DNA of 64,000 nt from Sphyrna mokarran (GCA_024679065.1 JAGIQG010000024.1:19158001-19222000), one strand, 5' to 3'. Shown: positions 24,601-60,005, numbered from the stretch's first letter. Notes: generated by a model not told the origin, from the sequence alone. A program made the numbers and translations.

Positions 24601-27600
24601 TTCCTCTCTTCCATTTCCTGATTTAGTTATTTTTAGAATGTTACTTGTGTTCTCTAGAGCGAAGACCAATGCTAAATACCTATTTAATTCCATAGCACCA
24701 CTAATCATCAATTCTCCAAATGCACCTTCTACAGACCAACGTTCAGTGTGTCAACTCTTTTCTTATTTAACTGTCTATAAAACCTCTTACTATCAGATTT
24801 TATATTAGTAGCCAGCTGAAAGCCAGCTCCCCACCTCTTCCTTAGATTTACTCAAAGTCCAGACATCTACCACACTCTGCAGTAGTGAATTCCACATTCA
24901 CAACCCTTTGAGAGAAGTAATTTTAGGCTCTCCTCTTGCTATTCTTCCTCTCTCATCGGAATGTATCTATTCTGTATATTCTGAAATGCCCCTTTAAATG
25001 ACTGCCACTGAACCTCCATTGACCTACCTTCTAAGCACATTTACCATGTTACTTTAGCTGGCTCTGCTTTCATGTCCCCATAATTGCCCTTATTTAAATT
25101 TGAATACTGCCATACCTTTCTGACAAGCCCCCATTATCTCTTCTTTTCTACTCTGCCCTACCATGTAGTTACAATTAGAATGCCTGTACGCCACTCCCAC
25201 AAGTGAATTCTTGCTTTTATAATTTCTCATTTCAATCAAAATCGATTTCAGTTTCCTGAACTTAGATCATCCCTTTCTAATGTGCTAATACCATCATTAA
25301 TTTCCATCTTTTCTCAATCTCTTGTGTTTCTTAAATGTCACATACCCTTCAACATTAAAGGTCCTAATCTATTTCATCCTGTCATCTTGTCTCTGTAATG
25401 TCTATCAGGTCATACTTATTCATTTCTTTTTGCACTATCATCTGTTCTGCTTCGGATGCTTTGTGCGTTTATATACAGCGTCTTTTAATTTAACTATTTT
25501 TGTGGCATCTAGCCTTACTTCAGATTTACTCAGAGATGTACTCTTTTCCTCTTCCTACCACAGTTTGTTCATCATTTACCATATTAGTACCTTTCTTACA
25601 CATTTTGGTCCTACAGTTTGGCATACATCTTCCCACGTTTGATTCCTTGCTCCCACTATTCAGTTTAAACCTCTCTTTGCTTCCCTAGTTATTGGCTTGC
25701 TAGAACGTCAGTTGTTGACCATCTCAATGGTACAGATTCCACTTTGCCCAGTAATGGTGCAGTGCCCTACAATCGGAACTCGCTTTCCGCACACCAGTGT
25801 TTGAGCCACACATTCATTTTTCTAATCTTGTTTGTTCTATGCAAATTTGCACATGGCTTAATTCTTACCTTTGAGGTTTTGCTTCTTAATTTGATGTCTC
25901 CACTCCTTGTACTGACGATACCTCTTTCTTCATCCTACCTATATGGACGATGATCACTGGATCCTCCTCCTCCCAACTCAAGTTCCCCCTCTGCAGACGT
26001 CCTGAATCCTGGCACCAGATAGGAAATGCTGGCGTTGGACTGAGGTAAACACAGTAAGAAGTCTGGTAATACCAGGTTTAAGTCCAACCAATTTATTTGA
26101 TAGTAACCTCATAAGCTTTCGGGGTTTGTCCCTTCATCAGGTGAATGGAGAGTTCTGGCCTCAGACAGAGCATATAATAGCACAGAGTATTATATGCTCT
26201 GTCTGAGGCCAGAACTCTCCACTCACCTGACAAAGGGATAAACCCCGAAAGCTTGTGAGGTTACTATCAAATAAACTGGTTGGACTTAAACCTGAAGTTG
26301 TCAGACTTCTTACCAAATAGGCAACACGGTTACCTGGACTCGCTCCTTGAACAGAGAACAGTGTCAATCCCCCTCATTATATTGTCTCCTATCACCACTA
26401 AGTTCTAACGTGTTCCCCTCACTTGAAAAACTGCCTTATCACCTTGTCAAGCGCAGCCAGCTCATCCAACCTGTAGCCCCCACTCTTATCCAAACAAGCT
26501 GAAAGAACATCAAACCTGCTCGACAACTGCAGAGGCTGACACTTATCCTGTGGGACCCTTTGCCTACCTCAACTATAGTCGCATCCTTTTGTCCCTGACC
26601 ACTTTGCAAACCAGTAGACCCTATCTTAAGGGTTGTAATCATCTCCTGAAACAAAATGTCCAGATGACTCTTTCCCTCTCTCTGCTACTCAGCCTCCAGC
26701 TCAATGACATTCCTTCAAAGTTCCTCAAACTGCAAACCCTCATTTCACAATGTTATCCAGGAACTCTCATATGTTGCAACCTTGACGTATCACCTGCCTG
26801 CCATCCTTTGTGTTTTAAATAACTATTTAATTAAATTATCTACTTACTTATGGTGCATTTTAACTTTACCACCAAGTTCTGTTTTAAACTTTACAGATAA
26901 AGTAGAATTTACCCACTTATCAGATTCTCGCCAAACAACAAACAAAGAAATGACTCAAATGGCACTAAATCCCTCAGATCAGACAGCTTCATACTGGGAT
27001 TTTAATAATACAAGAGAACATTGCAGATACCTAAACTATAATCCTCCAAAGTTCTTTCAATTTGGAGCAATTCATTTAGATTGGAAATTTGCACGTCACT
27101 CAGTTAATTATAAAGGTGATAGAGGGAAATCGTAGGATGAAAGACCAGCTAGCCTGTCATTAATTTCCTGACGATTAGAGTCTATTATTAAGGATAGGAT
27201 GACTGAATCTGTTGAGAAGTTTCAGTAGATCAGGCAGTCAACAGGGATCTGTAAATGACTAATTTTCTTTTAAGAGACAATTGAAGAACAGATAGGGGAG
27301 CGTCTACGAATCTTTCTTGTATGGTTCTCCAGAAGGCACTTGATAAAAATGCTTCAGAAGAGACTGTTGCTGAAGTTGAAACTCATGAAATTGGTACCAA
27401 ATCATTGACTTTGTTAGAAGTTGGTTGAATAGAGCATCCAAAAGGGGGGATATTGGAGAGCAGAAGTTAAGAATAACCGAAAGATACCATCTTAAATCAA
27501 ATACTTAATTACTGTAAAGACATTAGTGCATATTATCATGCATGTTGAGGCTCAAATGTTGTCACTGTTAAACAACTGGACGGAGGGAATTATAAACTTT

Positions 27601-30600
27601 ACATCTGTAGATTCTACATGCAAAACCATTCCAGTTGCGGTCGCAGCACCGATCTCATTGGATTCTTTCTCACGAAAGGGGACCAAAATAGTGCGCAGTA
27701 CTCCAGATGCAGTCTCACCTTTGCCCTATACAATTGCAACAACACTTTCCTACTTTAATACTCTATTCCATTAGCAATGAATGTCAAAATTTCATTTATC
27801 TTTCTTATTATCTGCTACACCCCTATGCTAACTTTCTATGATTTATGCATGACGACTCCCAGATCCCTCTGCACAGAGGCTCCTCACCATTTAGGCATCG
27901 CCTGTCAACAGCTTAGGCTGTATTGATTTTTTTTTCCTCCCACTTCTTTCCTTTTTCAATTCAGGCTTTTTTTGACTAAGGAAAAAATTGGCATAGAATG
28001 TTTGGTAATGTGCATGTTAAAAAATGCACTTTCAGAAGCAGATATTGCATTATCTTGCCTCAAAAAGGACATGCAAACAGTCCCAGATCAAGACCCTTTT
28101 TCAAAAATGAGGACTTAATTGAGACATTAAGTTAGCTTTCTTTTTACAGGTAAATACTGACCTGCATTATTCATGCCTTATTTTAGAAAATTTCAGCTTC
28201 GGTTTTCATATTCAAGAAAAGCTCTCAATTGTCTCATTTAAATTGTAAGATTAAGTGGCAGTTTTCTAAATAAAATAAGTCAATCATCTACTAAACTATA
28301 ATAGGAACAGCTGCATAAATGGCTTATCTGATGAAGACAGAATATAAAACATGTTTACAATTTACAGGTTATTCTCCTTTCATATCATGCTAGTGGGAAT
28401 TGCAGATTAGAAAGATAGGTAATAAATATTTAATCTAATTAAAATCACAGAATCAGGAATTTCCCTTGATGGTCTCATGTGCAAATGCAGCACAGAGCCA
28501 TTCAGACCTAAACGTTCCTCTATTTACACAGAGTTAACTCATCTCTGCCAAAGTAGCAGCTGAGTCTTCCGGATGAGTACATGGGATTAAATGGGATTGG
28601 GAGTTACAAATAGCTCTATGGCCTAGTCGATGTGGATATGATCGGTGCAACTTGTGGGCCGAAGGGCCTTGTTGTGCTGTAGTGTTCTAACTGGACTCTG
28701 AATCTTGTGGCAAAAGGAAGAGAAAAAAATTCAGTTGGGGTTTCCCACTACTGCTTACAAACCCACGGTTCGCACTGGGATCCATTACAAACCCAGTTAC
28801 ATGGAAACAGACTATCAACCTTCACTATTTGGATTCTTAGAGTGGCCACTGGTTCAAAGTACACAGAGTAAACAGCTTTTTAAAATGGAGACTCTGTCTC
28901 CTTTGAAGTGGAGGGATTACAAAAGAATAAATCACAGAACTGAGATCCAATATAGACTAGCTTGATGCATTACATACTTCTATTACAAAGCTGAACACAA
29001 GGGTTAAAAGTTAAAAGTTAATTTATTAATCACAATTAGTCTTACATTAACACTGTAATGAAGTTACTGTGAAAATATCCCAGTTGCCACACTCTGGCAC
29101 CTGTTTAGGTACATTGAGGGGAAATTTGACCTGGCCAATGCACCTAACCTGCATACGTTTGGACTGTGGGAGGAAACCCAAGCAAACACAGCGAGAACGT
29201 GAAAACTCCAGACAGTGACCCAAGCTGGGAATTGAACCCGGGTTCCTGGCATTGTGCTAACCACTGTGCCACTCTAAAAAAACTGTAAGTGACAATCTTT
29301 GAGTTTTCCATGCTGCAATTCAGGGCAACAAGAAAAACCAAAGAGAAACGCTATTCTAATCAAGCAGCTGTAAACAGAATGGTGGCAAGCAGGAGTGAGG
29401 TGTGATAAACATCAACAAGAGTAAGAATCACCACAAAAGGGTTCAGAGCTACCAATGAGAAGTAGAGTGTTTACCCGCTGGCTAGGATACACCTGCAGCT
29501 CAGTTTACAAGGAAGTCTCATATCAAAATACACTTTATGGTTTTCCATTACTTTAAAGTAGAATTCTGTTGAAGGAAATTGTAGCTGAAAATAAGCTTTC
29601 ACCTTGAAGGATGTAAAGACGGCTGCTCTCTCAACTGGCCACGTGTTCTGATGGCATTCCTATGATTATTTTAAAACAATATTAACCTATTTAAAATAGG
29701 CAGATCGTTTTTAAACTTGATGTAATAGATATTGAATGATACATCAGCTTGAGGAACTATCAGCCTCCTATTTATTTTTTTACCTTAAAGCATAGACAAA
29801 GGAATATATAGAATCATACAATGCAGAAGAGATTCTTTGGCCCTTTGCATCTGCACCGACATGTGAGAAACACCTGAACTCCCACCGAATCCAATCTACC
29901 AGTGCTTGGCCCATTCCCTCTGGAAGCATATAACGGTTCTCGACATGGACAGTAAGAAGTCTGACAACATCAGGTTTAAATCCAATTGATTTATTTGATA
30001 GTAAACTCACAAGCTTTTGACCCTCTGGTCTTCATCAGGTGAACCAGAGGGTCGAAAGCTTGTGAATTTACCATCAAATAAATTGGTTGGATTTAAACCT
30101 GGTGTTGTCAGACTTCTTACTGTGTTTACCCCAATCCAACTCTACATCTCGATCTGGATATAGGAATATCCAATTCTGATGCAATACTGATGTGACCCAT
30201 TCTTGATGCTATGCATCAGAAGCAAGATATCTGACTCGGGAAGTAAACAGGGTTAAGCTTTTTCCTAGGATGGACTCAAATAGCATGAGGGATCACGGGC
30301 TTAGGGTGAGAGGGATAAGGTATAATTTGGATGCTAGAGGGAGTTTTTTCACAGAGGGTGGTGGGGGTATGGAATGCCAAGTGGTGGAGGCAGGCACTCT
30401 GGAGTTATTTAAGAAATACTTAGATGGGCACATGAACAGAATGGGAATGGAGGGGTATAGAAAACTGATTTAAAATAGGGATCATGAGCCTTGGGAGTCC
30501 CTGGGAAGTGTGTAAATAGATGATGATATTGATGTACTTGTTTTTATCCTACAGGTGCTTTGGTCCACCTTGTTGTCTAACAAGGGGCATACACATGATG

Positions 30601-33600
30601 GGTCGTGAGAGGGCTGCTCTTGGATTTTTTGAGTATCCTAGTGCTTCACGTCGTTAGTGTACGCTTGACCTGGACCATTTGATGGGCAACACGACAGCTC
30701 AGTGACTATCGCTGTGCTGTGCAGATACATGGATTGGGCCTGTGTCTGTGGGAGTTTGCGCATTCTCCCCGTGCTTGCGTGGGTTTTCTCCGGGTGCTCC
30801 GGTTTCCTCCCACATCCCAAAAATGTGCTCTTAGGCTAATTGGCAGAACAAGTTCTCCCTAAATTGTCTCAAATTTGGTTTCAATCTATAGATCTGTAAA
30901 CATAGACAGGGATCACGGGTAGAGGTGGGAACATCGGGGTGGCGGCACAGGCTCGTTGAGCTGAAGGGCCTATTTCCCATGCTGTTTTGTTCTTTGTTCT
31001 TTGAGAACTAGAAGTAACTGCAGTTTCACGGTGCTACTACAAACGTAGATATCTCATTGTTATCGGTAGGAAGATCCTGAACTTCTCAGTCAATGAAGAG
31101 CTAATCTTAATCACAGCATCCTTAAAATCTAAGTGTCTTGCAAGACCACATTTGCAATGCAAAGGATGAACGTATTTGAAAGGAAGGTGCATCCCTCTAT
31201 TACTAAAGCTCTTCAGCAGTGCGCTGTGACCCTTTAAGTTAATAAAGGTAACACTTGTAATACTGCCCAAACACTTCTCTCCAGCTTAACCATTTTGTAC
31301 TAACAGTGAATGCTGCGTACAAAGCATTAATCCACATCATTGAGCTAAGGAGAGAGGAGGAGGAGAAGAAGGAAGATACCACACAACGTCAAAACAGAGT
31401 TCAATGTATACTCTCGATTTGTATTGAAGCCACAGTGACAGCACAAATAGATTACAATATGAAAGTACCTTGCAAACACTAACCTTCTAGTCTATTGCGT
31501 TGTCACTGCAGTCATCATGTTACGTGTAACCAAATCCAATGACCCCTCAACAACTCTTTGCAGTACAAATTTATATGAATAGTCACTATAGAAATCAAAC
31601 TGGCAGATTCCAATTACTGTCATCACCTCCCACACCCACTCCCCAATTTAGAAAGTTGATGGAAAACTCAATTAGATGCTAGTTCTGCCATGTGTTGATA
31701 GGTACAGATGGAGTGGAAGCTGAACTGCTGAATTAGGACAAATCTACTCTGAACAGCAGCTAACTGAGGTTTGTGTTAACAAACTGTGCCTGTGCTGCAA
31801 TGGACAATGCCTTGCATTGCCAAGATGTAATTTCAATTTGCTGCAAGATTTCCCATCTTGTAAAAATGACTCAATACAGTGACTGCATCATGCAACGATA
31901 TCAAGGCTTCACGTTCCATCTCTGGTTTGTTTAGCAAGCTGATTTCAGCTGGAGATCATAAACTCTCTACAGTGCAGAAGGAGGCCATGCAATCCTTCAT
32001 GTCTGCACCAATCCTCCAATAGAGCATCTTACCCAGGCCCATACATTTATCCCACTAATTTCCCTATACATCTTTAGACACTATGGAACAATTTAGCATA
32101 GTCAAGCCAGCTAATCTGCATACCATTGGATTGTGGGAGGAAAACAGAGTACCAAGAGGCAACCCACACAGGATCACCCAAGGCTGCAATTTAACCCAGG
32201 TCCCCAACATGAGGCAGCAGCACTAAGCACTATGCCACCATGCTGTCCCAATGCTAACAGATTGAACAGCTAGCCTTTAGACTTCTGAGCTGAGGAGGGG
32301 AAAAATAAATGAGAGCTGTGTTTCTTTATTGTCATTTATATTGAATTGAATTCTGAAGACTTAGTTGTGATATAGAGCGATGGCACCATATCCCAGCAAC
32401 AGCCTTCAAAACAAAAAAAAGTAGAAACTGATGTCTGCCATACTGTAGCAGTAGGATTTAAATTGAGGGCAGACATTTTATCTAAAGGGCAATTACAAAA
32501 ATATCATTGGACCAATCAACTTAAGTTACTGTATGATTACAGAACAGCAGACGCAGAGGTTTAGGAATACTCCAACAATTTCTACCAGAGGTAGAAAAGC
32601 TGTAGAGCAACAGTCAACCTACACAAGAAGAGAAACTGGCAAGCGGTTGGAAAGCAGCAGCAGCCCACTTGATCAGTACCCCAGCCACCACTGAAAGCGT
32701 TTGCCCCATTCAACAGCAGCTCAGTGTAACAGAAGTGCATCATTCATAAGATATACTAGCAACTTATCAAGGATTCTTCAACAGAAATTCTGAACCTCCA
32801 ACTTTTACCATCAGAAGGGCAAGGGCAGCAGTTCTTGCCAACATCATCAGCTGCAAGCTCTTCCTAAGTCATATAATACCCTGACTTGGAAAATATGTCA
32901 CCATTGGGTTATAATTTTGGAACTTCCTACATAACAGCACTTTGGGAGCACCTTCATCACACAGAATACACCAGTTCAAGGCAGTGGCTTCTCAGGGACA
33001 GCTAGGAATGGGCAATAAACATCATCATTGCCACTGGCGCACACAGCCCAGACTAATAATAAAGTAACAAGACAGGCCATTAGGAATTTCAAAGTACATC
33101 ATTATTATGAGATATTGATGGTGTAATCTGTTGCACTCTGCAACCACAGATATTAACATCCAGGGGAAGACAATTAGAAGAAATAAATATCATGACCAAT
33201 TTCAGAGAAATTTGAGGGGAAATTCCTTCTCAACTCTTCAAGGCAATTAAGCAAGCTCAGAAGATCATGCTAATGCAACATAATCCCTAGGTGTACATAA
33301 CCAACACACTCAATCCCATGAGTGTTTGAGAAGTTATGTTAAACATTCTCATTGACTACTTTCAAATTGAATTGAGACATCATTAGTTATTATGGTAATT
33401 TCCCATTTTTTTCAAACTAAATAGCTTTTCAATTGTGAGGAATAGGCAAAGCATTAGAGGGAAATGAGAAATAAGTTGTTGCCTCAAACACCAATAGGGA
33501 CACATGAACAAACAGATAAAGAACTGCTGTCCATCCAGCCTATCCCACACAATTATGTTAATTTTTGCATCACAGTGTATACACTCTCAGTTTAGTTTAA

Positions 33601-36600: not shown

Positions 36601-39600
36601 GGCAGGGCATTCCATTCCCTAATCACTCTTTGAGTAAAGATAAGCATAGCATATAAACATCTAGCATAGGTACAACCACAGTGCTGTTAGGACAGGAGTT
36701 CCAGGATTCTGACCCAGCAATGGTGAAGTATAGTGACATAATTCCAAGTCTAAAGGCAGTGGTGTTCTCCAGAGGTTGTTCGAACAATGCATTAATAACG
36801 CAAGGCATAGTGTTAAACTTTTAGAATAATCTGAACAAGTGAATTATAGTAAACAATGAGGCCAGTAACAACTCCAGAATATAAACAGACTTGCGAAATG
36901 GGCAAACATATGACAGATGGGATTTAACACAGAAGTGCAAAATGCTACATTTTGCTAGGAAGTAAGGCAATATGAACTAAATCATCCAAACATAAGGGGA
37001 TGCAGGAAGAGATTTGAACATATATTTTAACAAAGGGGAGATGGTAGTGTAGTGATAATGTCATTGGCCCAGACCCAGGCTAATAGTCTGGGTACAGGGA
37101 TTCAAAACCCATTACGACACATCGTGAAATTTAAATTCAATTCATAAAATCTGGAATAGAAAGCGAGTCTCAGTAATGGGGTGACCATGACAATTATGAT
37201 CAATTGTTGCAAAAACCCATCTGGTTCACTAGTGTCTTTAAGGGAAGGAAACCTGCCATCCTTTACTGGTCTGGCCAACTGTGGCTGTTTCTGAACTGCC
37301 TTCTAAAATGAAAACAGAAAATGCTGGAAAATCTCAGCAGGCCTGACAGCATCTGTGAAGAGAAAATAGAACCAATGTTTTGAATCATATCACCCTTAGT
37401 CAGAGCTGAAGGGTCATCTATCCTCCCCCCACAGATGCTATCAGACTGCTGAGTTTTCCAGCATTTTCCTGTTTTCGTTTCAGATTCCAGTGTTCAGGTC
37501 TGGCAAGTCACTCAGTTCAAGGCAATTAGGATGGCTTGCCAATGACACCCTGGAAAAAAGTCAAACAAATCTCTGACCGTGGCAACATAAGTTGAGAAAT
37601 CTGAAGAAAATTCAAGATTCTTGGCTTGATTAGTGGAGGAATGAAGAACAAATACATGGAGATTACGCTAAAGCTGTTTGGGTCTCAGCTGGAATATTGT
37701 GCTCAATTTTGGGAACGACACTTTCAAAGGAACCCCAAGGCCTTGGAGAAGTTGCAGATTTAATAAAATTGAGAGACTCAATTGTGTGTAGAGCCTGGAG
37801 AAGCTTCAGTTGTTTATGGTTGAATTCAATAGAGGTATGCAAAATCAAGAACAGCTTCCATTAGGGTAAAAGAGAAACTGTATGCAGTAGCAGATCGGCC
37901 AGCAATCAGTGGACACAGATTTAAGGTTTTTGACCACTTTCAAAAGAGAATAAGATAGCTGCTTAAAGGGAAGAAACACAAAGGGATAGGAAGACAGAAC
38001 TAGATGCATATGACTAATTGGACAACTCTGTCAAAGTGCTGATATTGGCATGATGGGTCAACAGGATTCTAATTAATGAATGGACCCACTCAAATGTGAA
38101 AACACTTTCTCTCTACATTGACTCTGCTCATTAAACTTGAATCTTATTTTCATGATTGTTCATTCTTGCTGGGATATAATTCCAGCCCTCTCATAAGTTA
38201 CCAGAGCAGTACTCTTCAGATGAGGTGGTAAATATGGACAGCTGTTCAGCAATCCAGTTTCCATCCAAAGACCTTACACACAACATCCAACAGACACTAC
38301 TGGGAAGGATCAACTGTTTTTCTGTGAACAGTTGTGAAATTTCAAACAGTTTGCACTGATTGAATCAGTTTTCACTTAAGCCAATAAAATTTACATCGGG
38401 GCACAGTGAGATAAATAATTTAAACTTCTGATGTGTTACAAACTATGCTTTAATTTTTTTCCCAGTTTCTTACCTGCAGACGTTTCCTTGAACTTTTCAC
38501 TCGTTTTCTTTTTCCGCCATTTCCATGGTTTGAATATTTTCCCAAATCCCGGAAACTTTCCTCTTCTCCGTGCAATAGGTGTGTCTGAGCCAGAGACGTC
38601 ATTCTCCGAGCCCACTGGCGGAAGCTGCTCCCCTTCCTCAGCTGCACAGTCATTGGAAGAGAAAATAAAACTCAATTAAATTCCGGGGTGCAAAATGAGG
38701 GATTAGAATTAAACAACAAAGCAAGTAGCATCAAGCTATGGAGTATTGGTTTCCAGTTCTTAAATAGCCTTACATAAAGCAACATCAATCAGACCCCACT
38801 GGTGCATAGGGAATATCTGTTAGTTACTTGTGAATAATGTTATGGGGGTGGGGAGGGAAACAGAGGGGGAGGCTGGGGAAGAGCGAACTTGCTGGAGGGG
38901 GTGGATGGGTTGGGGGAGAGTGAACGCAAGGGGGGAAGGCTGAGGAAACTGGGAGTGGGGTGGAAAAGCACACCAAATGGTGCACTAAATGGAAGGGTGG
39001 GATAGAGACAGAGAGAAATGGGAAAGCTGGGAAGAGAGAAACGCAAATGAGGAGAGAGAAAGGGGATGGAGAGAATTGGAGAAAGGGAAGTGGAGATAAA
39101 AGGAGAGAAAGGCAGGGAGGTGAGAGAAAAAAGGGCAGAGAAAATGGATCAGGAAAGGGGAGAACAAAGACAACAAGAAAAGCAAAGGAGAAAGGAGATA
39201 AGGCACTGGATTCCAAATAAGCTTTCCAAATCCAGCCTAAGATTATGGGGCACCCATTTCTATCATCAATTTGAAGACTCCTTGGCAAAATGGATTCTCA
39301 GAAATACCCGGTTCGCTTTATGTACTGCCCAATAGGTCCGAGACACGTGGCTTGGGAACCCTTGTATCCAAGCACTCCGGAATGCTTGATTTAAAACATA
39401 CAACTACTATTCTTCTTTTGTTTGCTTTTTTTACGTGCAAGATAAACTACTGGCCAGAGATTTCATTAGCAACTCAAAAACCTCTTTCGCCAATTCATTG
39501 TAATCAAATTGATGGACAGGCTGTGAACTCTTGCACACATCACTCTTTTGTTATTTCGTTTATTTTTCCATTTGAGAAGAACCATATAAACAATTCTTCT

Positions 39601-49610: not shown

Positions 49611-50477
49611 TATCCTGGGAATTATATCATCAGAGGTGCCATTTTTCAGATGACACATTAAATGAGATCTGAGTTATCTGCTTAAGGTGGATGAAGGTGA
49701 TCTTAAGGCACTATCTTGAAAAGAAAAAAACCTACATTTATATTTGCAGAAGTGGGGAGAGAGAAAAACATGACTCATACAACATGCAGAGGGGTTCAGG
49801 GAAATAATCCTAGCGTTCAGGACCTAGGCATAGAATTACACAGTATATTCAGCACAGAACACACTAGTGAATCAATCTAGTTGTGCTGGCATTTAGGCTC
49901 CGTACATAATTCATACCATTTAGCATTTCTTCCTGTTCCTTTCTCATTGTGGACAGCATGGTAACACAACGTTAATGTCTCACAGCACCAGGAACCTGGA
50001 TTTGATTCCTGGCTTGGGTTACTGTCTGCATGTTCTCCCCGTGTCTGCACGTGTTTTCTCCGGGTGCTCAGGTTTCCTCCCAAAGACACGTTGGTTAGAT
50101 GCATTGGCCATGCTAAATTCTCCCTCAGTGTACCCGAACAGGCGCCAGAGTATAGCGACTAGAGAATTTTCACAGTAACTTCACTGCAATGTTAATGTAA
50201 GCCTACATGCAACACTAATAAATAAACTTTAAACCTCGCCTAGTTACATTCTTACACCCCATGGAAATGGAATGGGAAACAGAGAGACGAGAAAGAGTGA
50301 AGGGAATGGATATGAGGCAGAGTCAGCGGAATAGAGAACCTGTGAAGTGGGTTGAGGGGATTCTTGGACTGGAGATTTTAAAGAGAGGAAGAGGAACATG
50401 CCATGAATGTATTTAAACATAGTGGAAAATTTTAAGTTTGAGGATACTAGGAATTTGAAGCCAACGTAGGTCACTGA

Positions 50478-50644
50478 TAGGATGACCAGATTTTCAAAAG
50501 CCAAAACTATGGTACACTGAAATGCCTTGGGCAAGTGGAGTGTCTTGTTATTGACACGTGGGATGACCAAAGGCAGAAGTCTGGAGATACTGCAGTTGAG
50601 TGTGGGAAATCATGTGGCGACATTTCCCAGAATTAGCAATCCTA
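50478..50644. mobile_element. Possible hAT/Blackjack-type non-autonomous DNA element
   Basis: Imperfect TIRs taggatgacca ... tagcaatccta; no clear 8-bp TSD. Confidence 0.3.
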
Positions 50645-50716
50645 TTAAGGCACCCAGTTATTGAAGAGAGCAATTATGAACCACAGACTTTTATTTCAAT
50701 GACATTTCTCCTCAGA

Positions 50717-51060
50717 CAAAAAACAGAAAATGCTGGAAAATCTCAGCATGTCTGACAGCACCTGTGGAGAGACAATAAAGCTAATGTTGAGAGCAGAGAA
50801 AATCAGAAGAGATTTATAGTATGAGGGTGGGGGGTGGGGGCGGGCTTTGATTGGACAAATGGAATGTAAATAAGAATGAAGGAAGCTGAGGAAGGTGCTA
50901 AGAGTGTCTATTAAATGATAAGAACGTGTAAATGGCAGAAGAGGTACAGATAGTTAAGTCTTTAAGTCTTTAAAGGGTAAATGGAGATTGGGAATGGAGA
51001 AGTGAAAACATTTAAGTGAGAAAGGAGGATGACAAAAATTTCTGCCTCATCCTCTTTCAA
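50717..51060 (-). mobile_element. Penelope family B single arm with internal sequence
   Basis: aaaacagaaaatgctggaaaatctcagcatgtctgacagcacctgtggagag with no inverted partner; right boundary uncertain. Confidence 0.55.
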
Positions 51061-51234
51061 AATAAAAGAAGAGTTTGTTCATCACAAGACCCCTGCTAGA
51101 ATTGTTCTCGTTGTTCAACGAAGCGAGTGGAGAGAAGGTTAGAGAGAGTAAAGGTAAGCAATTGACTTTGTAAAGTTTTTTTTGCGGGCTTTAATGGAAA
51201 TCCAGTTTTAAAAGTTAAACACGAAGTGGAGCGT

Positions 51235-51671
51235 GGGGGGCGGAGGAGGAAGGAGGAGGGGGGAGGGGCGAGGAGGGGGAGAGGGGGGAGAGGGGGGAGG
51301 AGGGGGGAGGGGGGGGGGGAAGGAGGAGGGGGGGAGGGGGGGGGAGGGGGGGGAGGGGGGGGGGAGGGGGGGGAGGGGGGGGAGGGGGGGGAGGGGAAGG
51401 GGGGGGAGGGGGGGGAGGGGGGAAGGGGGGGGAGGGGAGGGGGGGGAGAGGGGGGGGAAGAGGGGGGGGAGAGGGGGGGGAGGAGGGGAGGAGGAGGAGG
51501 AGGAGGGAGGAGGAGGGGGGAGGAGGGGGGAGGGGCAAGGAGAGGGGGGAGGGGAAGGAGGGGGAGGGCAAGGAGGGGGAGGGGCAAGGAGGGGGGAGGG
51601 GCAGGAGGGGGAGGGGCAAGGAGGGGGAGGGGCAAGGAGGGGGAGGGGCAAGGAGGGGGAGGGGCAAGGAG
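51235..51671 (+). repeat. Poly-purine (G/A) tract ending in about 16-nt GGGGCAAGGAGGGGGA tandem units
   Basis: Almost pure G/A for about 430 nt, running into the gap. Confidence 0.9.
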
Positions 51672-52027
51672 NNNNNNNNNNNNNNNNNNNNNNNNNNNNN
51701 NNNNNNNNNNNNNNNNNNNNNNNNNNNNNNNNNNNNNNNNNNNNNNNNNNNNNNNNNNNNNNNNNNNNNNNNNNNNNNNNNNNNNNNNNNNNNNNNNNNN
51801 NNNNNNNNNNNNNNNNNNNNNNNNNNNNNNNNNNNNNNNNNNNNNNNNNNNNNNNNNNNNNNNNNNNNNNNNNNNNNNNNNNNNNNNNNNNNNNNNNNNN
51901 NNNNNNNNNNNNNNNNNNNNNNNNNNNNNNNNNNNNNNNNNNNNNNNNNNNNNNNNNNNNNNNNNNNNNNNNNNNNNNNNNNNNNNNNNNNNNNNNNNNN
52001 NNNNNNNNNNNNNNNNNNNNNNNNNNN
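51672..52027. other. Assembly gap (356 N)
   Basis: Run of n. Confidence 0.99.
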
Positions 52028-55000
52028 GCCTCAGCTTCTGAATCTGCACAAACAGGTTTGAGATTCTTGCTCCCAGTGGACAAAAACGAGTATTGCAAGG
52101 TGGACGAGCAAACTCCCCACGGTACAGTGATGCAGGGAGAGATCAAAGCAGAAGAAGTAAAGAGAAATGTAGTGATAATTGGGGATTGTGTAGTTAGGGG
52201 CACAGACACTGTCCTTTGTGACAAGGATAAAGAATACCGAAGGGTGTGTTGTCTGCCTCGTACTTGGGTCCAGGATGTCTCATCTGGGTAGCAGAGGGAC
52301 CTGAAGTGGGAGGGTGAGAATCCGGTCATCGTGATTCATGTAGGTGTCAACGACATAGACAAAATAGGAACTAAGGATCTGCAGAGGGAGTATGATAATC
52401 TGGGAACCAAATTAAAAAGCAGAACCAACAAGGTGGTTATCTTTAAATTACTACCAGAACCCCACACTATTTGGCGCAGGATAAATAGGATTAAGGAGAT
52501 GAGTGCATGGCTCAAGGATTGATGTGGGAGGAATGGATTCCAATTTATGGGGCACTGGCACCAATATTGTGCAGATGGGACCTGTTCAGATGGGATGGTC
52601 TTCGTCTGAATCGTGGCGAATTGTATAATCAGGACTGTAGATAAGGCTTTAAACTAATTAGTGAGGGGAGAGTGCAGGGGTGAGGGAAATTACAAAAAGT
52701 AAAGGAGAGAATACGTGTGCAGGTTAATGTTGAGGATGTTCCACTAATTAAAGGAGTAGGCGGCACGAGAGAAGTTAGTAACAATTCTACAAATAAGGTC
52801 CAGAAAAGACTGGTATAGAGATACTTTATCTGAATGCACGAAGCATTCGAAACAAAGTGAATGAGCTGATTGCGCAAATCAGCACAAATGGGTACGATCT
52901 AGTGGCCATTACGGAAATGTGGTTGCACGGTGACCGGGACTGGGAACTGAATATCTGGGATATCAGACATTTAGGAAGGACAGACAGGAGGATAAAGGAG
53001 GTGGGGTAGCTCTATTAATAAAGGATAATATCAGGGCAGTGGTAAGAGAAGATATAGCCTCCAAACAGCAAAACGTGGAATCATTGTGGGTGGAGATAAG
53101 GACTAGAAAGGGAGAAAGACACTGGTGGATATGGTCTATAGGCCCCCAGATAATAACTTTGAAGTGGGGCAGGCTATAAACAAACAAATAATTGATGCGT
53201 GCAGAAACAGAACGGCAATAATTATGGGGGATTTTAATCTCCATATTGATTGGTTGACCCAAGTCAGACATGGTGGGCTTGAGGAAGAGTTCTTGGATGC
53301 TGTCGGAATAGTTTCCTTGAACAGTGTGTAACGGAACCTACGAGGGAATGAGCTATCTTAAATCTGGTACTGTGTAACGAGGCAGGTAGAATTAGGAACC
53401 TTCTTGTGAGGGATCCTCTTGGGACGAGTGATCATAGTATGGTTGAATTTCTGATGCAGATAGAGGATGATAAAGTAGGGTCCCAAACCTGTGTCCTCTG
53501 TTTGAGCAGAGGTGAGTATGATAAAATGAGGGCGGAATTGGCGAATGTAGATTGAGGACACAAATTGGTTGGTAGGGTGGCTGAGGAACAGTGGAGGATT
53601 TTTCAGAAGATCATTTTCGGTTCTCAGCAGAAATATGATGATAAAGAAGGGCTGTAAGAGAAGAGATAACCAGCTGTGGTTATCAAAGAAAATAAAGGAG
53701 AACATTAAATTAAAAGCTGATGTGTTCAGAGTGGCTAAAAATAGTGGGCAATTAGAAGATTGGGAAAGGTTTAAAAAACAACAAAGAATTACAAAGAAAG
53801 CGATAAAGAAAGGAAAAATAGAGTATGAAGCTAAATTAGCTCTAAATATAAAAAACGACAGTAAAAGTTTTTACAAATATGTAAAAAGGAGGAAACTGGC
53901 TAGAGTGAATGTTGGATCCTTGGAGGATGAGGGGGGGGATTTAGCTGTGGGTAACGAGGAAATAGCTGAGGCTTTAAATAAGTTTTTTGTGTCAGTCTTC
54001 ACAGAGGAGGACACAAATAGCTTGCTGATTATTAAAGATAGAAGGACGGTAGGAGATAAGGTCCTTAATGCAATTACTGTCACTAGAGAGGTAGTGTTTG
54101 ATAGACTGATGGGACTGAAGGTAGACAAGTCCCTGGGACTGGATGGAATACATCCCAAGGTTCTGAAAGAAATGGCACAGGTGATAGCAGATGCCTTAAT
54201 AATTATTTATCAAAATTCGCTGGACTCTGGGAAAGTGCCGAAAGATTGGAAAATGGCTAATGTTACGCTATTTAAAAAAGGTCGCAGACAAAAGGCAGGA
54301 AATTATAGGCCGGTTAGCTTAATGTCCGTAGTTGCAAAAATATTAGAATTCATTATCAAAGATGAAATAGCAAGTCACCTAGAAAAGAACGGTTTGATTA
54401 AGCAGACGCAGCACGGATTCGTGAAGGGGGAATCGTGTTTAACAAATATATTGGATTTCTATGAACACATGATCAGTGCGATAGACAAAGGGGAACCGGT
54501 GGATGTGGTGTTTTTAGATTTCCAGAAGGCATTTGATAAGGTGCCTCACAAAAGGTTAGGGTGCATGGAGTTGGGGATAAGGTGTTAGCGCAGATTGAGG
54601 ATTGGTTTTCTAACAGGAAGCAGAGAGTTGGAATCAATGGGTGCTATTCTGGTTGGCAGCGATGACTAGTGGAGTGCCGCAGGGATAGGTGCAGGGGCCT
54701 CAACTGTTTACATAGATGATTTGGAGGAGGGGGCTAAGTGTAGGGTAACAAAATTTGCTGATGACACAAAGATGAGTGGAAAAGCGAATTGCGTGGAAGG
54801 TGCTGAAAGTCTGCAGAGAGATCTGGATAGGCTGAGTGAATGGGCGAGGATCTGGCAGATGGAGTATAATGTTAGCAAATGTGAGGTTATCCACTTTGAT
54901 AGAAATAATAGTAGGAGGGATTATTATTTAAAGGGCAAAAAGCTGCAGCATGCTATAGTGCAGAGGAACCTGAGGGTCCTTGTGCACGAATCGCAAAAAC

Positions 55001-55671
55001 CCAGTCTGCAGGTGCAGCAAGTGATCAAGAAGACAAATGGAATTTTGGCTTTTATAGCGAGGGGAATAGAATACAAAAGCAGAGAGGTCTTGCTGGAACT
55101 GTACAGGACACTGGTGAGGCTGCAACTTAAGTACTGTGTGCAGTGTTGGTCACAGCATTTGCAAAAGGATATATTTGCCTTGGAGGGAATACAGAGAAGA
55201 TTCACTGGGCTGATATGGAGATGAGGGGGTTGGCCTTTGAAAAGAGCTTGAATAGACTGGGTCTGTACTCATTAGAGTTTAGAAGGCTGAGGTGGGAGCT
55301 TGTAGAGACAAGATAATGAAGGGGCTAGATAGGGTAGAGGTAGAGAGATTCTTCTCGCTTAGAAGGGTATCAGATATAGAGGGCACAGCCTCAAAATGAG
55401 GGCAGTTTAGATAAGAGTTGAGGAGGAACTTCTTCACTCAAACAGTGGTGAGCCTCTGGAATTCTCTGCCCATTGAAGTGGTGGAGGCTACCTCGCTGAA
55501 AATATTAAAGTCATGGGCAGATAGATTCTGATAGACAAGGGAATTAAGGGTTATGGGGAGAAAGCGAGAAAGTGGAACTGATCCACTTCAGATCAGCCAT
55601 GATCTTGTTGAATAGCGGGGTGGGCTAGATGGCCTACTCCTGCTCCTATTTCTTATGTTCTATGTTCTTAT
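52028..55671 (+). mobile_element. Near full-length CR1 LINE: ORF1 SGNH/esterase, ORF2 APE endonuclease + RT, disrupted
   Basis: ORF1 VVIIGDCVVRG, VCCLP, IHVGVNDI. APE YLNARSIRNK, VYRPP, IIMGDFN. RT GNYRPVSL, VVFLDFQKAFDKVPH, KFADDTK. Tail ttcttatgttctatgttcttat. Several stops and frameshifts. Confidence 0.95.
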
Positions 55672-56738
55672 CTTCTATTCTGCTTTAGCTTCACTGTGCA
55701 ATACTTCACGTAGATAGGAGTTGGGCAGCTGGGTCCTGGATGAGCTGAAATTTATGGACGATCAGAAAACATTGATGGAAGATCAGCGTTAATTAGGAAA
55801 GCAATGGAGTTATTCATTCTTCGATGACAACAGCATGGCTGAGCATTTCAACAGAAATCAATTAGATTAGGAACACAATATGGAGCAGATGGGAGGAATG
55901 CTCAATAGAACAGAACTTCCATAACTTTAGGGTTCAAAGTGGGGAAGTGAGGAGAAGAGAACAGTAGGCAGAGGGACACATGAAGAATGAAGAGAACTCA
56001 TTTCCATCAGGATGGAAATATTCAACTTTTATAAACGGTCATCTTTCCTAACTTCAGAGAGATCCAGTTGTTGGATTTCTCGCACCATGGATTGCTTTAG
56101 TTCACGATTGACATGATATAATTGTTTGGAATGTTGGGCGTGAAGATAATGACTGACACCTCAGGGCCATTAAATAATGTATTCCACAACCCATTCCACC
56201 CCCATCCTGACTTGCTTTTCCTTTCGCAATTAAAAGCTTTCAAAAACTTTAGTCCCAAATCTGCAGGATGCCAAACATAATGAGGACAGGCGCAATGCTG
56301 AGGACCCGCAACTCAGGATATTGTTTGTGTGCTGCTGCAAAAAGGTTCATGAGGTAACAGGGAAAAACTGAGTAGCTAAATAAACTATCAATTTGTGTCC
56401 CAGCCAATGGTCGTCCCAGTAACTAAGCTCACTTTCTCAAACCATTGACTGCATCTCTGCAGAAAAAGATTGAAAAATTAGCACGAAGTTTGTGGCAGAA
56501 TTGCTTCTTCAGCCATCCCAATGTTCAGCACCAATTAGTGACGTGCACTGGGATAGCAGTTTCCCAGCAGGGTCACTCGTTATCCTGATCCCTAATCTTA
56601 CGCCGTTAGAACAGATGGCCAAGGACGCCGTTGGCCCGGGCAGGAGAGGTTCATTAGTACTGAGGGAGCACTATACAGCAGAGGGGCAGTATTGAGGGAG
56701 CATCAAACAGCAGAGGAGCAATCCTGAGAGACCACTAT

Positions 56739-57122
56739 AGTAAGAAGTCTCACAGCACCAGGTTTAAGTGCAACTAGTTTATTTGATACTAATCCCACAA
56801 GCTTTCGGAAATTGTGTTCCTTTGTCCAGTGTGTGGAAGGTTCTGATCAGAGAAGGGCATTTAAAGACACACAAGGTTTACAGAATACTGATTAGAATGC
56901 AAGTCTTTACAGCTAACCTGCTATTCATTCTAATCAGTATTCTGTAAACTGCGTGTCTTTATATGCTCTTTTCTGATCAGAACCTTCCACACACCTGATG
57001 AAAGAACACAGTTTCCGAAAGCTTGTGAGATTACTATCAAATTAACTGGTTGGACTTAAACCTGGTGTTGAGAGACTTCTTACTGTGTTTACCCCAGTCC
57101 AACACCGGTATCTCTACATCAT
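56739..57122. mobile_element. Penelope-derived family A hairpin, about 160-bp arms, 26-nt loop
   Basis: Arms 56739-56899 and 56926-57084, followed by the family 3' extension gtttaccccagtccaacaccggtatctctacatcatg. Confidence 0.85.
56990..57029 (+). ncRNA. Minimal type I hammerhead ribozyme motif, best-preserved core in window
   Basis: cac CUGAUGA A aGAA cacagu UUCc GAAA GC UU gug; core intact, first stem II pair mismatched. Confidence 0.6.
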
Positions 57123-58129
57123 GACTATCATTGGAGCGCTATAGGACAGAGGGGCATTATTGAGGGAGCGCCTTACAACAGAGGAGCAGTTTTGAGGGAA
57201 CATACAGCAAAGGAGCAGTATTAAGGAGCACGACACAACAGAACAGCAATCTTTAACAAGACTTGGGCTCCATTTTGCCTATTCAAGTGCAGGTTAATAA
57301 AAACAAATCACAAAAATGCTGTTGCACAAGAGCTTGGGAGTTTCCCCTAAGGCACTAGGCCAAATTACCTCCATCAGTAAATACTAAAAACAGATTTTTA
57401 TCAACAATTTTGTTTGTGGAGCTTTGCTGCGCACCAAATGACGACTAAGTTAGCCTACAACCCATAAGTATCTACGCTTCAAAAGTAAACTAGTGATTCC
57501 AAGTTGCTTTGCAAATATAGCACACAAGGTTGTATCTGTAAGTGGAAATTCCTTTCTCCTGTTGCTTAGCACCACATGGTGCAGTCCATTAGTAATAGAG
57601 CCAGACAAGCAGGTTTTTTCGCAGCACTTTTCCGTTTGACACACTCTGCCAACAAAAAAAGCAATGGTATTGGAGCTGTACTACTGTTCTGTGCTTCACT
57701 GAGGTCTGGCTGATCTTCACCACCTTCCAAACTGGAGTGAAAGCAGCAAATAAACACATATATCTTAATGACCCAGCAGCCAAGTCAAGTCATCCCAAGA
57801 ACACACACAAAGAAACTCAGTTTCAGCTCCAATGATCTGTTTTTAATACTGCTCAGGTGTTCTGTTATATGTTACTGGTTACAGCCAATGGGCAACAGGC
57901 AAACACAATTCTCCTAGGGCTAAGATACAGTATTATTCACCCTCACAAAACATAGTAAAATTTTAGTTATGTTACATAAAAAATCTCAGTTCAGAAGGAA
58001 GCCATTCAGCCCAGCATGCCTGTGACAGCTCTTCAAAAAAAAAGCTATCCAATTAATCCAATTTCCCTGCTCTTTCCCTATAGTCCTGTAAAATATGTTA
58101 ACTTGTATTAGCAAAGTCATTACTGTCCT

Positions 58130-58630
58130 ACATTTGAAACCTAGCCACATAAGGAGATATTAGGAGAAGTGACCCAAAGTTTAGTACAAGAGGTAAGTTT
58201 GAAGGTGCAGCTTAAAGGAGGAGATCAAAGCATTGTGGAGGAGAAATTTGGGAAGGGAATTCCAGGGCTTAGGGTCAAGATAGCTGAAAGCACAGCCAGC
58301 AGTGGTGATGGTTAATGTTGAGGACATGCAAGAGGTTGGAGTAGAACAATGTGGGAGGATTGAGGGGCTATAGGAGCTTACCATGATGGGGAGGCCATAG
58401 AGTGATTTGAAAACATGAACATTTTAAAATTTGATGCCAAGGTTGGGGGTAGCCAATATGGTGAGTGAGCACTGGGAACCAAGTTGAATGGGACTTGGCT
58501 CAAGTTAGAACATTCAGAGCTTTGGCCCACAGAGGAAAGACACCTGGAACACCCAAGTCCAGCGGAAACCAAGGAAGAATGAGGATTTCAGCAGATCAGC
58601 CAAGGCAATAGTGGGATATTTGATGGGGTG
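58130..58630 (-). mobile_element. L2-clade LINE 3' end
   Basis: ORF 58181..58384 includes AGCAFSYLDPKPWNSLP...SSFKLHLQTYL, resembling the L2 ORF2 C-terminus. Confidence 0.7.
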
Positions 58631-58663
58631 CAGGATTGATGCCAGAGGGGTTACAGACTAGGA

Positions 58664-59128
58664 AGATTTGATTTATTGTCACATGTATTAATATACAGTG
58701 AAAAGTATTTTCTTGCACGCTGTACAGACAAAACATATTGTTCATAGAAAAGGAAATGAGAGAGTGAAAAATGTATTGTTACAGTCATAGCTTGGGTGTA
58801 GAGAAAGATCAATTTAATGCAAGATATGTCCATTCAAAAGTCTGATGGCAGCAGGGAAGAAGTTGTTCTTGAGCCGTTTGGTATGTGACCTCAGACTTCT
58901 ACATCTTTTTCCCAAAGGAAGAAGATGGAAGAAAGAATACTAGGGTGCTTGGGGTCCTTAATTATGTTGTGCTGAGATAGTGGGAAGTATAGACAGAGTC
59001 AATGTATGGGAGGCTGGTTTACGTGATGGATTGGGCTACCTTCACGGCCTTTGGTATTCCTTGCAGTCTTGGCAGAACAGAAGCCGTACTGGGCTCTGAT
59101 ACAACCAGAAAGAATGCCTTCTATGGTG
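58664..59128 (-). mobile_element. Rex1/Babar 3' fragment
   Basis: Reverse complement of the 48576-49300 3' region, including gatttgatttattgtcacatg. Confidence 0.85.
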
Positions 59129-59620
59129 GAGGACTGAAATCAGAAAAAGTACAAGACTGACCAATGTTGAGACCGAGTTTGACGCCGAACCTGATTATTG
59201 AGTTGTCCCCTTCAAAGTATTGGCCTTTAAAAAAAAGTTTGGAAACAAAAAGCGTGGCAAAACCTACATTCTTTCAAGTTAACCCACGTTGGAACAGAAG
59301 TTGGATGAGAATATACAGGAAGAACGAACAAATGCAGTGATCATTATGAAGTTCAAGAGTTCAGGCTTCAAAGCTGACAATTTAATCTACACTTGAACAG
59401 TTCTCATAACACATGCTGGACTAGATGTTAGACATGGACTGGTCAACACACCATTCTTTTTCCTCATTTCATTTCCAAATCCGCAATCTTGACCACAAAA
59501 ATGAGAACAAGGGCATTGGTTGTTTGGGAATACCATTACCTGCAAGTTCCTTTTCCTGTCAAACAGCATCCTGAATTTGAACTGTATTGCTGCTCCTTCA
59601 CTGTCACTGGGATAAAAACC

Positions 59621-60005
59621 AGTCTGATAGCCAACTTCTGCACACATGAAGACGGTCTTAACAGGGATCTTGGCTTCATGTCACACTATCTGTAACCCCC
59701 ATGACTTGCCTGGGTTAGCAAAAAACCTCACTTACTGTGCTGTCTGGAGACAATACACATCTCTCTAACCAATGCTCCGTGTTCCCTTCACTCACATTGT
59801 TAGCCACTTTAAGACTTGAATAGCAGGTTAGGTGTAAGGATTCGCATTCTAATCAGCAATCTATAAACTGTCTGTGCTGATATGTGTGCTATTGCAGACC
59901 AGAGCACCTCATTTGCCTGACAAAGGCACAAAGGCCGAAAGCTAGCAAGTTTACTATCAAATAAATCGGTTGGATTTAAAATTGGTGTTGTCAGACCTCT
60001 TACTG
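59621..60005 (+). mobile_element. 5'-truncated Penelope-like element: end of GIY-YIG ORF plus 3' pLTR/UTR with hammerhead motif
   Basis: Translation ends LIANFCTHEDGLNRDLGFMSHYL*, resembling vertebrate Penelope C-termini. It is followed by the family A arm and uugc CUGACAA A GGC acaaag GCC GAAA GC UA gcaa. TSD-like gataaaaacc and gataaaaccc. Confidence 0.8.

What the first reader, a model, noticed from the sequence alone, without database searches (positions are those of the whole stretch)
26108..59950. Covarying minimal hammerhead ribozymes across family A copies
Seen: five copies share CUGANGA (or a 1-nt variant), an extra A, stem II, then GAAA-GC-U-H. Stem II differs between copies but still pairs: GAGC/GCUC (9.7 kb, left of this range), GGG/CCC (26.1 kb), GACC/GGUC (30.0 kb), GGAA/UUCC (56.8 kb arm) and GGC/GCC (59.9 kb). 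Stem I is UCAC/GUGA at 26.2 and 30.0 kb but UUGC/GCAA at 59.9 kb. The cleavage base H is U, A or C and never G. Established: this fits the hammerhead core and the NUH rule, and Penelope-associated minimal hammerheads with a palindromic stem III remnant are reported to cleave as dimers. Inference: the source elements were selected for ribozyme structure, with AAGCUU as the dimer interface. Each genomic copy here has at least one defect.
Basis: partly seen in the sequence, partly recalled or inferred. Interest (0 to 1): 0.8.

Follow-up and report, generated by a model that had tools for sequence, protein, structure and literature searches.

The report
Decayed hammerhead ribozymes in shark-type retrotransposons
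These are broken copies of a small self-cutting RNA motif carried at the end of a Penelope-type jumping gene, a known feature of such elements, here seen in what looks like a shark genome.

Summary
The motif is real. Seven family A arms from five insertions fit the minimal type I hammerhead layout; stem II differs between insertions yet pairs (13 of 15 Watson-Crick, permutation P=0.0013). The repeat is the pseudo-LTR of a Penelope-like retrotransposon (PLE): the 59.9 kb copy follows the last 23 codons of an ORF matching shark RT/GIY-YIG proteins, and 6 of 6 two-armed insertions are head-to-head with a tail on one arm only. Sister arms share their stem II variant while core lesions are arm-specific and mostly CpG-type, so the source RNAs were intact and the genomic copies are decaying. 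Corrections: the helix III remnant is AGCU, not AAGCUU; 'H never G' is weak (P about 0.3); the stem I change may be CpG decay; inverted arms fold into long hairpins that abolish the ribozyme fold, and no same-strand neighbours are close enough for a cis dimer. Minimal hammerheads in PLE pseudo-LTRs, including a GAAA-GC-U-H form, are published (PMC4209133). Dimer cleavage is untested here, and published activity is low or protein-assisted. Verdict: new member of a known kind, low interest.

The parts
26108..26145 (-). Minimal hammerhead, left arm of the 26 kb insertion; intact core (C3 at 26140), 3-bp stem II, predicted cut after 26113; first stem I pair is a C.A mismatch
26222..26259 (+). Minimal hammerhead, right arm of the 26 kb insertion; G8 to A; intact stem I; predicted cut after 26254
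26017..26313 (.). 26 kb insertion: head-to-head inverted pseudo-LTR arms (126 nt, 91% complementary), tail on the left arm only; in an intron of a PHACTR-family gene
   Evidence: left end approximate
30006..30043 (-). Minimal hammerhead, left arm of the 30 kb insertion; G12 to A; 4-bp stem II GACC/GGUC; predicted cut after 30011
30043..30066 (+). 3' half of the hammerhead on the right arm (starts inside stem II; GAAA intact)
29949..30145 (.). 30 kb insertion: inverted arms (81 nt, 91%), tail on the right arm only
   Evidence: right end approximate
56794..56833 (-). Minimal hammerhead, left arm of the 57 kb insertion; core UGGACAA (3 changes); stem II GGAA/UUCC intact
56990..57029 (+). Minimal hammerhead, right arm of the 57 kb insertion; core intact; G10.1 to A
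56739..57128 (.). 57 kb insertion: inverted arms, tail on the right arm only, inserted in a 32-bp tandem repeat
   Evidence: right end approximate
59624..59695 (+). Last 23 codons and stop of the PLE ORF (C-terminus of the GIY-YIG endonuclease region)
   Evidence: 91% identity over 23 aa to P0005 (Pfam GIY-YIG), 74% over 27 aa to P0008 (RT + endonuclease, Heptranchias perlo)
59911..59950 (+). Minimal hammerhead in the 3' pseudo-LTR of the 5'-truncated PLE; G8 to A; stem I UUGC/GCAA; H = A; predicted cut after 59944
59624..60005 (+). Single-arm 5'-truncated PLE: ORF end, 3' UTR, hammerhead, short end without tail
9679..9846 (.). 9.7 kb insertion, a different subfamily (stem II GAGC/GCUC); hammerhead at 9723-9761 (+), heavily decayed; half motif on the minus arm; tail on the right arm
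4949..5083 (.). Short fold-back copy whose inversion centre is the AAGCTT palindrome; no 5' core; tail on the left arm
5243..5353 (.). Short fold-back copy of the region downstream of the hammerhead; tail on the left arm
3880..3918 (+). Family B minimal hammerhead relic (different sequence, ACGU palindrome, 5-bp stem II, two core defects), part of an inverted insertion at about 3.67-4.0 kb

Best explanation
Family A is the pseudo-LTR of an endonuclease-containing Penelope-like retrotransposon of Neptune/Nematis type in a chondrichthyan genome. It carries a minimal type I hammerhead with no helix III of its own. SHOWN: element identity, layout, compensatory stem II differences between source subfamilies, decay after insertion. 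INFERRED (about 0.55): in the source element's tandem transcript two same-sense hammerheads exchange strands, the AGCU palindromes form a shared 4-bp helix III, and each core cuts its partner after AGCU-H, releasing unit-length RNA; a single hammerhead cannot cut, so the RNA that is reverse-transcribed from the tail about 60-100 nt downstream is copied through an uncut hammerhead, which is why every copy keeps it. Element protein may be needed to fold it. The copies in this window are dead: they carry CpG-type core lesions and most are locked in long fold-back hairpins.
For: ORF end at 59624-59695 matches 9 of 10 candidate proteins, among them shark-named ones; P0008 has RVT_1 plus DKG, YIDD, CX4CxxC and a GIY-YIG-like motif; the CX2-5CxxC linker marks Neptune and Nematis (PMC8557442). 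P0087 (Chiloscyllium punctatum) has an antisense-translated family A pseudo-LTR directly before PLE RT sequence and decodes to a compatible core. Head-to-head arms with a tail on one arm in 6 of 6 two-armed insertions, as described for PLEs (PMC8557442; PMC3846280). Stem II: 13 of 15 Watson-Crick over five insertions, exact permutation P=0.0013; stem positions differ at 24 of 36 between insertions against 64 of 348 in the downstream region, but only 3 of 37 stem II+loop positions differ between sister arms. N7-G8 reads TG in 4 and CA in 3 of 7 arms, the pattern of a decaying CpG. Core differences between sister arms 5 of 27 against 29 of 305 elsewhere, Fisher P=0.18: no protection after insertion. 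Family B shows the same layout with ACGU. Published consensus CUGANGAH G...C GAAAN palindrome NUH (PMC4209133 Fig S3).
Against: No cleavage data for this family. Nearest-neighbour energies do not favour the double-hammerhead fold over two monomers or over a free dimer in any of 5 pairings tried (e.g. 26.2: -21.3 against 2 x -11.9 and -24.8 kcal/mol); the model ignores core contacts, so this is weak. Only five insertions; on the MAFFT alignment the tool's shuffles reached the observed values in 6 to 23 of 500 for four measures and 472 of 500 for the fifth, and relatedness is not corrected. The fourth stem II pair is mismatched in two insertions and the fourth stem I pair in both 57 kb arms. No Rfam hit. 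No full-length or tandem element in the window. In anole PLE, cleavage was not needed for insertion in vitro and no RNA-seq reads ended at the cut site (PMC11167929); 8 of 9 Xenopus retrozyme dimers did not cleave in vitro (bioRxiv 10.64898/2026.07.22.740005).
Confidence: 0.8

Rival explanations
1. The motif is a real, selected hammerhead but works as a protein-assisted monomer (the PLE protein stabilises the fold); the palindrome is not a dimer interface.
For: The anole Poseidon hammerhead cut only with added element protein, lost activity with C3G or G8C and was partly rescued by the double mutant (PMC11167929). Dimer constructs gave low activity (PMC4209133). Computed dimer folds are not favoured.
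Against: With only GC between A15.1 and U16.1 a monomer cannot close helix III (established geometry; argued in PMC4209133). Positions 15.2/16.2 are complementary in both families here (GC in 9 of 9 family A arms or half arms with that segment; CG in family B) and across the published table. The anole study sections I read do not test monomer against dimer.
Confidence: 0.25
2. Stem complementarity is generated by mutation, not selection: local template switching during reverse transcription or replication perfects hairpins, and CpG decay mimics compensatory change.
For: These elements fold back often (6 of 7 family A insertions have inverted arms). At 9.7(+) the segment after the cut site is 12 of 14 complementary to its own downstream region and differs from the sister arm, as a template switch would leave. 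All four stem I differences between 59.9 and the other copies fall where a UCGC/GCGA ancestor would have CpGs (read; ancestor not observed).
Against: Does not explain the conserved single-stranded core, the extra A, the NUH site, the long-range stem I or a second family with the same layout. Stem II changes include transversion pairs (G-C, C-G, A-U at position 3) shared by sister arms.
Confidence: 0.12
3. The motif is kept as a structural or cis element (promoter, protein-binding or fold-back priming site) and cleavage is vestigial.
For: Naiad PLEs thrive without canonical hammerheads (PMC8557442); catalytic mutants did not affect insertion in vitro; several inversion junctions here lie inside the motif (30.0, 9.7, 5.0 kb).
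Against: All catalytic positions are recoverable from at least one arm in the 26, 30 and 57 kb insertions; short 5'-truncated copies would have junctions near the 3' end anyway.
Confidence: 0.15
4. One or more copies were domesticated as functional ribozymes in the host PHACTR pre-mRNA.
For: The 26.1 kb arm keeps a full core, is on the transcribed (minus) strand and lies in an intron.
Against: Its antisense arm is transcribed first and the region folds into a -217 kcal/mol hairpin (z = -24.5); stem pair probabilities fall to 0.0 in context for 6 of 7 family A arms and to 0.28/0.08 for 59.9; stem I starts with a mismatch; nearest same-strand copies are 2.9-27 kb apart.
Confidence: 0.02

Closest known systems
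Minimal hammerheads (min-HHR) in metazoan PLE pseudo-LTRs (Cervera and de la Pena 2014, PMC4209133)
   Same: Type I, no helix III, extra base after A9, G10.1-C11.1, palindromic 15.2/16.2, NUH; mostly single 5'-truncated copies, pairs close together on opposite strands, high stem variability. The turtle (Chrysemys picta) entry has the same G-C-U-U after GAAA.
   Different: No chondrichthyan name among the species in Table S1 or Fig S3. Stem II here is short (3-4 bp) against about 5-8 bp in most listed motifs.
Neptune/Nematis-clade EN+ Penelope-like elements (PMC8557442)
   Same: C-terminal GIY-YIG, DKG motif and CX2-5CxxC linker in the matching proteins; inverted 5'-truncated copies; 30-40 bp tail at one end.
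   Different: Only 23 codons of the ORF lie in the window; clade assignment rests on relatives and on the linker, no tree was built; Neptune and Nematis not separated.
PAc, Poseidon element of Anolis carolinensis (PMC11167929)
   Same: Hammerhead in the pseudo-LTR; two fixed 3' ends that bracket a tail, matching two RT start sites.
   Different: Different clade; its cleavage was shown and needed protein; nothing was measured for family A.
Non-LTR retrozymes (PMC7229834, search listing only; bioRxiv 10.64898/2026.07.22.740005)
   Same: Type I hammerheads related to PLE pseudo-LTRs; the preprint reports retrozymes in its one chondrichthyan genome.
   Different: Retrozymes are direct tandem repeats; the copies here are dispersed, inverted or single, and one is joined to the ORF end.

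Membership tests
PLE minimal type I hammerhead | Core CUGANGA ... GAAA ... UH | tested here: met
   Complete on 26.1(-) and 57.0(+); recoverable from sister arms at 30 kb; one or more lesions on the other arms
PLE minimal type I hammerhead | Unpaired base between positions 9 and 10.1; G10.1-C11.1 | tested here: met
   Extra A in 7 of 7 arms; G-C in 5 of 7
PLE minimal type I hammerhead | Helix III absent, palindromic 15.2/16.2 | tested here: met
   AGCU in 9 of 9 family A arms or half arms tabulated; ACGU in family B
PLE minimal type I hammerhead | Stems I and II with compensatory changes | tested here: inconclusive
   Stem II P=0.0013 over five insertions; tool control 6-23 of 500 on four measures, 472 of 500 on one; stem I change may be CpG decay; no phylogenetic correction, R-scape not available
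PLE minimal type I hammerhead | Located in a PLE pseudo-LTR | tested here: met
   About 220 nt downstream of the ORF stop at 59695
PLE minimal type I hammerhead | Self-cleavage (dimer or assisted) | not testable with these tools
   Needs bench assay; energy model uninformative
Rfam hammerhead families | Match to a curated covariance model | tested here: not met
   No hammerhead family among 18 matches at E<=10; this bars filing under an Rfam family, not the resemblance
EN+ Penelope-like element | Single ORF with RT and C-terminal GIY-YIG | tested here: inconclusive
   Only the last 23 codons are in the window; met in the matching proteins P0005 and P0008
EN+ Penelope-like element | Inverted 5'-truncated arms and a 30-40 bp tail at one end | tested here: met
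   6 of 6 two-armed insertions; 4 of the 6 tail-less arms and the single 59.9 arm stop at the same short end
EN+ Penelope-like element | Direct tandem pLTR-ORF-pLTR | not testable with these tools
   No full-length copy in the window (tblastn); no eukaryotic genome collection available
Neptune/Nematis clade | CX2-5CxxC linker between RT and EN | tested here: met
   In relative P0008 at residue 505; pattern present in 103 of 127 fetched proteins; not in window DNA
Non-LTR retrozyme | Direct tandem repeats each with a hammerhead | tested here: not met
   Tandem Repeats Finder lists none over the copies; same-strand copies 2.9-27 kb apart

The most novel reading that the evidence does not exclude
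Stem II is a hypervariable, self-correcting module: it diverges about 3.6 times faster than neighbouring pseudo-LTR sequence between source lineages (24 of 36 against 64 of 348) while staying paired and identical between sister arms, which would point to RNA-level evolution or template-switch rewriting of the ribozyme in the source pool; and fold-back insertion doubles as self-silencing, the antisense arm locking the ribozyme so that such copies are tolerated in introns. Sister arms then give a built-in record of the source RNA at every insertion, so a shark genome could resolve how PLE hammerheads evolve and whether any RNA is cut before copying.
Probability: 0.2. Interest if true: 0.55.

Novelty: new member of a known kind. 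Interest (0 to 1): 0.22.

Why it matters
It extends a published class (minimal hammerheads in Penelope pseudo-LTRs) to a shark-type Neptune/Nematis family for which I found no specific description (searches, 50 of an open-access library; a preprint covers one chondrichthyan genome and its supplements were closed). The open question in the field is what these ribozymes do in PLE replication: dimer, protein-assisted monomer or passenger. The two-arm insertions are a useful natural control for separating source-level selection from later decay, but this window alone does not answer the question. No host function is indicated.

Tried and rejected
Rfam scan: no hammerhead match; miRNA matches are the fold-back hairpins, below gathering score. 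Own covariance model R1 over the window, filters off: 19 matches at E<=10, of which 7 training arms, the 30.05 half arm (E=1.4e-5) and the 9.7 minus half arm (E=5.4); no new copies. Pattern scan of bacterial and archaeal genomes for stray copies: 0. Antisense-translation search for more stem II variants: 0 of 2 candidates; 4 hits in the representative library, 3 unrelated repeats or tenascin-like, 1 (P0131) a compatible copy with only one decodable pair. tblastn of 127 fetched proteins found no PLE ORF remnant other than 59.6 kb. Dimer energetics uninformative. ESM Atlas gave no hit for a host exon. AAGCUU interface, 'H never G' and stem I covariation considered and downgraded. Retrozyme and domesticated-ribozyme readings rejected. 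Rows dropped: B3.9 row (anchor off by one, corrected) and the B3.7-/B37- rows (wrong anchors). The family B hit at two defects is not above chance alone (simulations gave 0-2 hits per window) and rests on its homologous copies. Unchecked: genome-wide copies (no eukaryotic genome collection; metagenome and viral collections closed), R-scape, bioRxiv supplements (tables of chondrichthyan retrozymes and PLEs may bear on novelty), part 3 of the PMC4209133 supplement.


Full report
Setting. The window is 40.7% G+C with one N gap and is rich in interspersed repeats. It holds exons of a PHACTR-family gene on the minus strand: RPEL repeats at 20659-20778 and 1861-2154 (Pfam; best solved relative PHACTR1, E=1e-22), a further RPEL-like exon near 667 and an [10 protein letters not shown] exon near 38.5 kb (its assignment to PHACTR is from recall). 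The closest named protein relatives of the repeat's ORF are from sharks, so the genome is most likely chondrichthyan; that is an inference.

Observation. Family A occurs as seven insertions with 13 arms; seven arms from five insertions keep both halves of the hammerhead. All seven read stem I, a 7-nt core, an extra A, stem II, GAAA or AAAA, GC, U, H, stem I. The quoted stem pairs are correct. A strict descriptor found 0 perfect motifs, 3 with one core defect and 4 with two; 8 simulated windows gave 0 at one defect and 0-2 at two. A pattern for the intact core matches once, at 26113-26140 minus, against 0 in 100 shuffles. No Rfam hammerhead model matched.

What the repeat is. Upstream of the 59.9 kb motif lies the end of an ORF (59624-59695). 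A 41-residue query that included it scored 9 of 10 candidates. P0005 carries Pfam GIY-YIG and P0008 (Heptranchias perlo) RVT_1; P0008 also has DKG, YIDD, a CX4CxxC linker and a GIY-YIG-like motif, and its C-terminus matches the window at E=3e-8. Craig et al. (PMC8557442; passages) give the linker as the mark of Neptune and Nematis PLEs and describe inverted 5'-truncated copies and a 30-40 bp tail at one end. Here 6 of 6 two-armed insertions are head-to-head and carry the tail on exactly one arm; four tail-less arms and the single 59.9 arm stop at the same short end. Arkhipova et al. (PMC3846280; passages) describe the same head-to-head structures with palindromes at the junction. A Chiloscyllium punctatum gene model (P0087) contains the antisense of a family A pseudo-LTR just before PLE RT sequence and decodes to a compatible core. 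So family A is a PLE pseudo-LTR.

Is the covariation real? For stem II, using the register fixed by the core and one arm per insertion, 13 of 15 pairs at positions 2-4 are Watson-Crick; exact permutation P=0.0013. These positions differ at 24 of 36 between four insertions, against 64 of 348 downstream (pairwise sums, not independent). On the MAFFT alignment, which misplaces one stem II pair for the longer arms, RNAalifold recovers both stems and shuffles reached the observed values in 6, 17, 6, 472 and 23 of 500 for the five measures, while slid registers pair 18-52% of cells against 80%. With five related insertions this is suggestive, not R-scape-grade. Stem I is weaker: the four differences at 59.9 all fall where a UCGC/GCGA ancestor would have CpGs (inference; no such ancestor seen). 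'H never G' has P=0.32.

Internal control. Sister arms come from one insertion event, so what they share was in the source RNA. They share the stem II variant (3 of 37 stem II and loop positions differ), whereas each lesion at 26, 30 and 57 kb is on one arm only and the sister has the consensus base, apart from a fourth-position stem I mismatch on both 57 kb arms. N7-G8 is TG in 4 and CA in 3 of 7 arms, and 11.1-G12 is CG in 6, CA in 2 and TG in 1 of 9: ordinary CpG decay. Core positions differ between arms at 5 of 27, others at 29 of 305 (P=0.18), so the core is not protected after insertion.

Mechanism. By standard numbering (established; also Fig S3 of PMC4209133) helix III would be formed by A15.1-G-C-U16.1; A14 and H17 belong to the core. 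The self-complementary interface is therefore AGCU. A second family in the window has ACGU at the same place. A monomer cannot close this helix; two same-sense units can, each core then cutting its partner. Cervera and de la Pena (PMC4209133; main text parts 1-2 of 4, supplement parts 1-2 of 3) proposed this, saw no monomer activity and low dimer and trimer activity, and suggested processing of tandem precursor RNA and circle formation. Frangieh et al. (PMC11167929; parts 1-2 of 4) found that the anole PLE hammerhead cuts only with element protein, that cutting is not needed for insertion in vitro, and that RT starts at two sites bracketing the tail. Li et al. (bioRxiv 10.64898/2026.07.22.740005; parts 1-3 of 5) saw cleavage in 1 of 9 Xenopus retrozyme dimers and report retrozymes in one chondrichthyan; supplements not visible. 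My energy calculations do not favour the double-hammerhead fold in 5 of 5 pairings and are not decisive. I put dimer-dependent cleavage in the source RNA at about 0.55, protein-assisted monomer at 0.25, vestigial catalysis at 0.15. That copies extend through the motif shows that their templates were uncut there; no arm clearly starts at the cut site (the 5.3 kb plus arm is ambiguous).

The genomic copies cannot act. In 340-nt context the stem pair probabilities are 0.0 for 6 of 7 arms and 0.28/0.08 for 59.9. The 26 kb insertion, in a PHACTR intron, folds into a -217 kcal/mol hairpin with the antisense arm transcribed first. Same-strand copies are 2.9-27 kb apart. The two arms of an insertion are on opposite strands and cannot form a cis dimer.

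A caution. At 9.7(+) the 14 nt around and after the cut site are 12 of 14 complementary to the arm's own downstream region and differ from the sister arm, as a local template switch would leave. Such events could create stem complementarity without selection, and should be modelled in a genome-wide test.

Novelty. The class is published, including a GAAA-GC-U-U form in turtle. No chondrichthyan is named in that paper's Table S1 or Fig S3, and four searches listed no paper on shark PLE hammerheads; the one hit uses 'shark' only for the motif's shape (PMC6155905; passages). Penelope is listed for the whale shark genome (PMC8455134; one passage). The library lacks most subscription papers and Repbase/Dfam were not available. 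Verdict: new member of a known kind; interest 0.22.

Noticed in passing
window 3672-4000, 37307-37490, 50716-50793: A second repeat family (B) with the same minimal hammerhead layout but different sequence and an ACGU palindrome; the 3.7 and 37.4 kb copies are also fold-backs. Likely a second PLE family; no ORF link shown.
   Followed up: partly
window 667, 1861-2154, 20659-20778, about 38.5 kb (minus strand): Exons of a PHACTR-family host gene; the 26 and 30 kb insertions lie in the intron between the 38.5 and 20.7 kb exons.
   Followed up: partly
window 26054-26313, 29949-30123, 56739-57084: Long near-perfect hairpins (81-160 bp) that score against miRNA models below threshold; potential double-stranded RNA in pre-mRNA.
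   Followed up: partly
window 5040-5051: Inversion centre coincides with the AAGCTT palindrome of the hammerhead; other junctions (30.0, 9.7, 3.76 kb) also fall inside the motif.
   Followed up: partly
window 9754-9767 and 9787-9800: 12 of 14 complementary; possible local template switch that rewrote the stem I 3' strand.
   Followed up: partly
window 56998-57126: An ATG inside the core opens a frame that runs through the tail to a second ATG near the element's end, with one stop in this copy; the anole element's ORF also starts at its hammerhead. Not linked to any fetched protein N-terminus.
   Followed up: partly
window 53551-55224: LINE-type reverse transcriptase remnant (Pfam RVT_1).
   Followed up: no
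window 51182-52027: G-rich low-complexity tract next to a 356-base assembly gap.
   Followed up: no
window 3029-50219, many copies: An abundant SINE-like family (families D2, D3, D8, D9); resembles the shark HE1 SINE by recall, not tested.
   Followed up: no
window 56633-56739 and 57133-57242: The 57 kb insertion splits a 32-bp tandem repeat.
   Followed up: no
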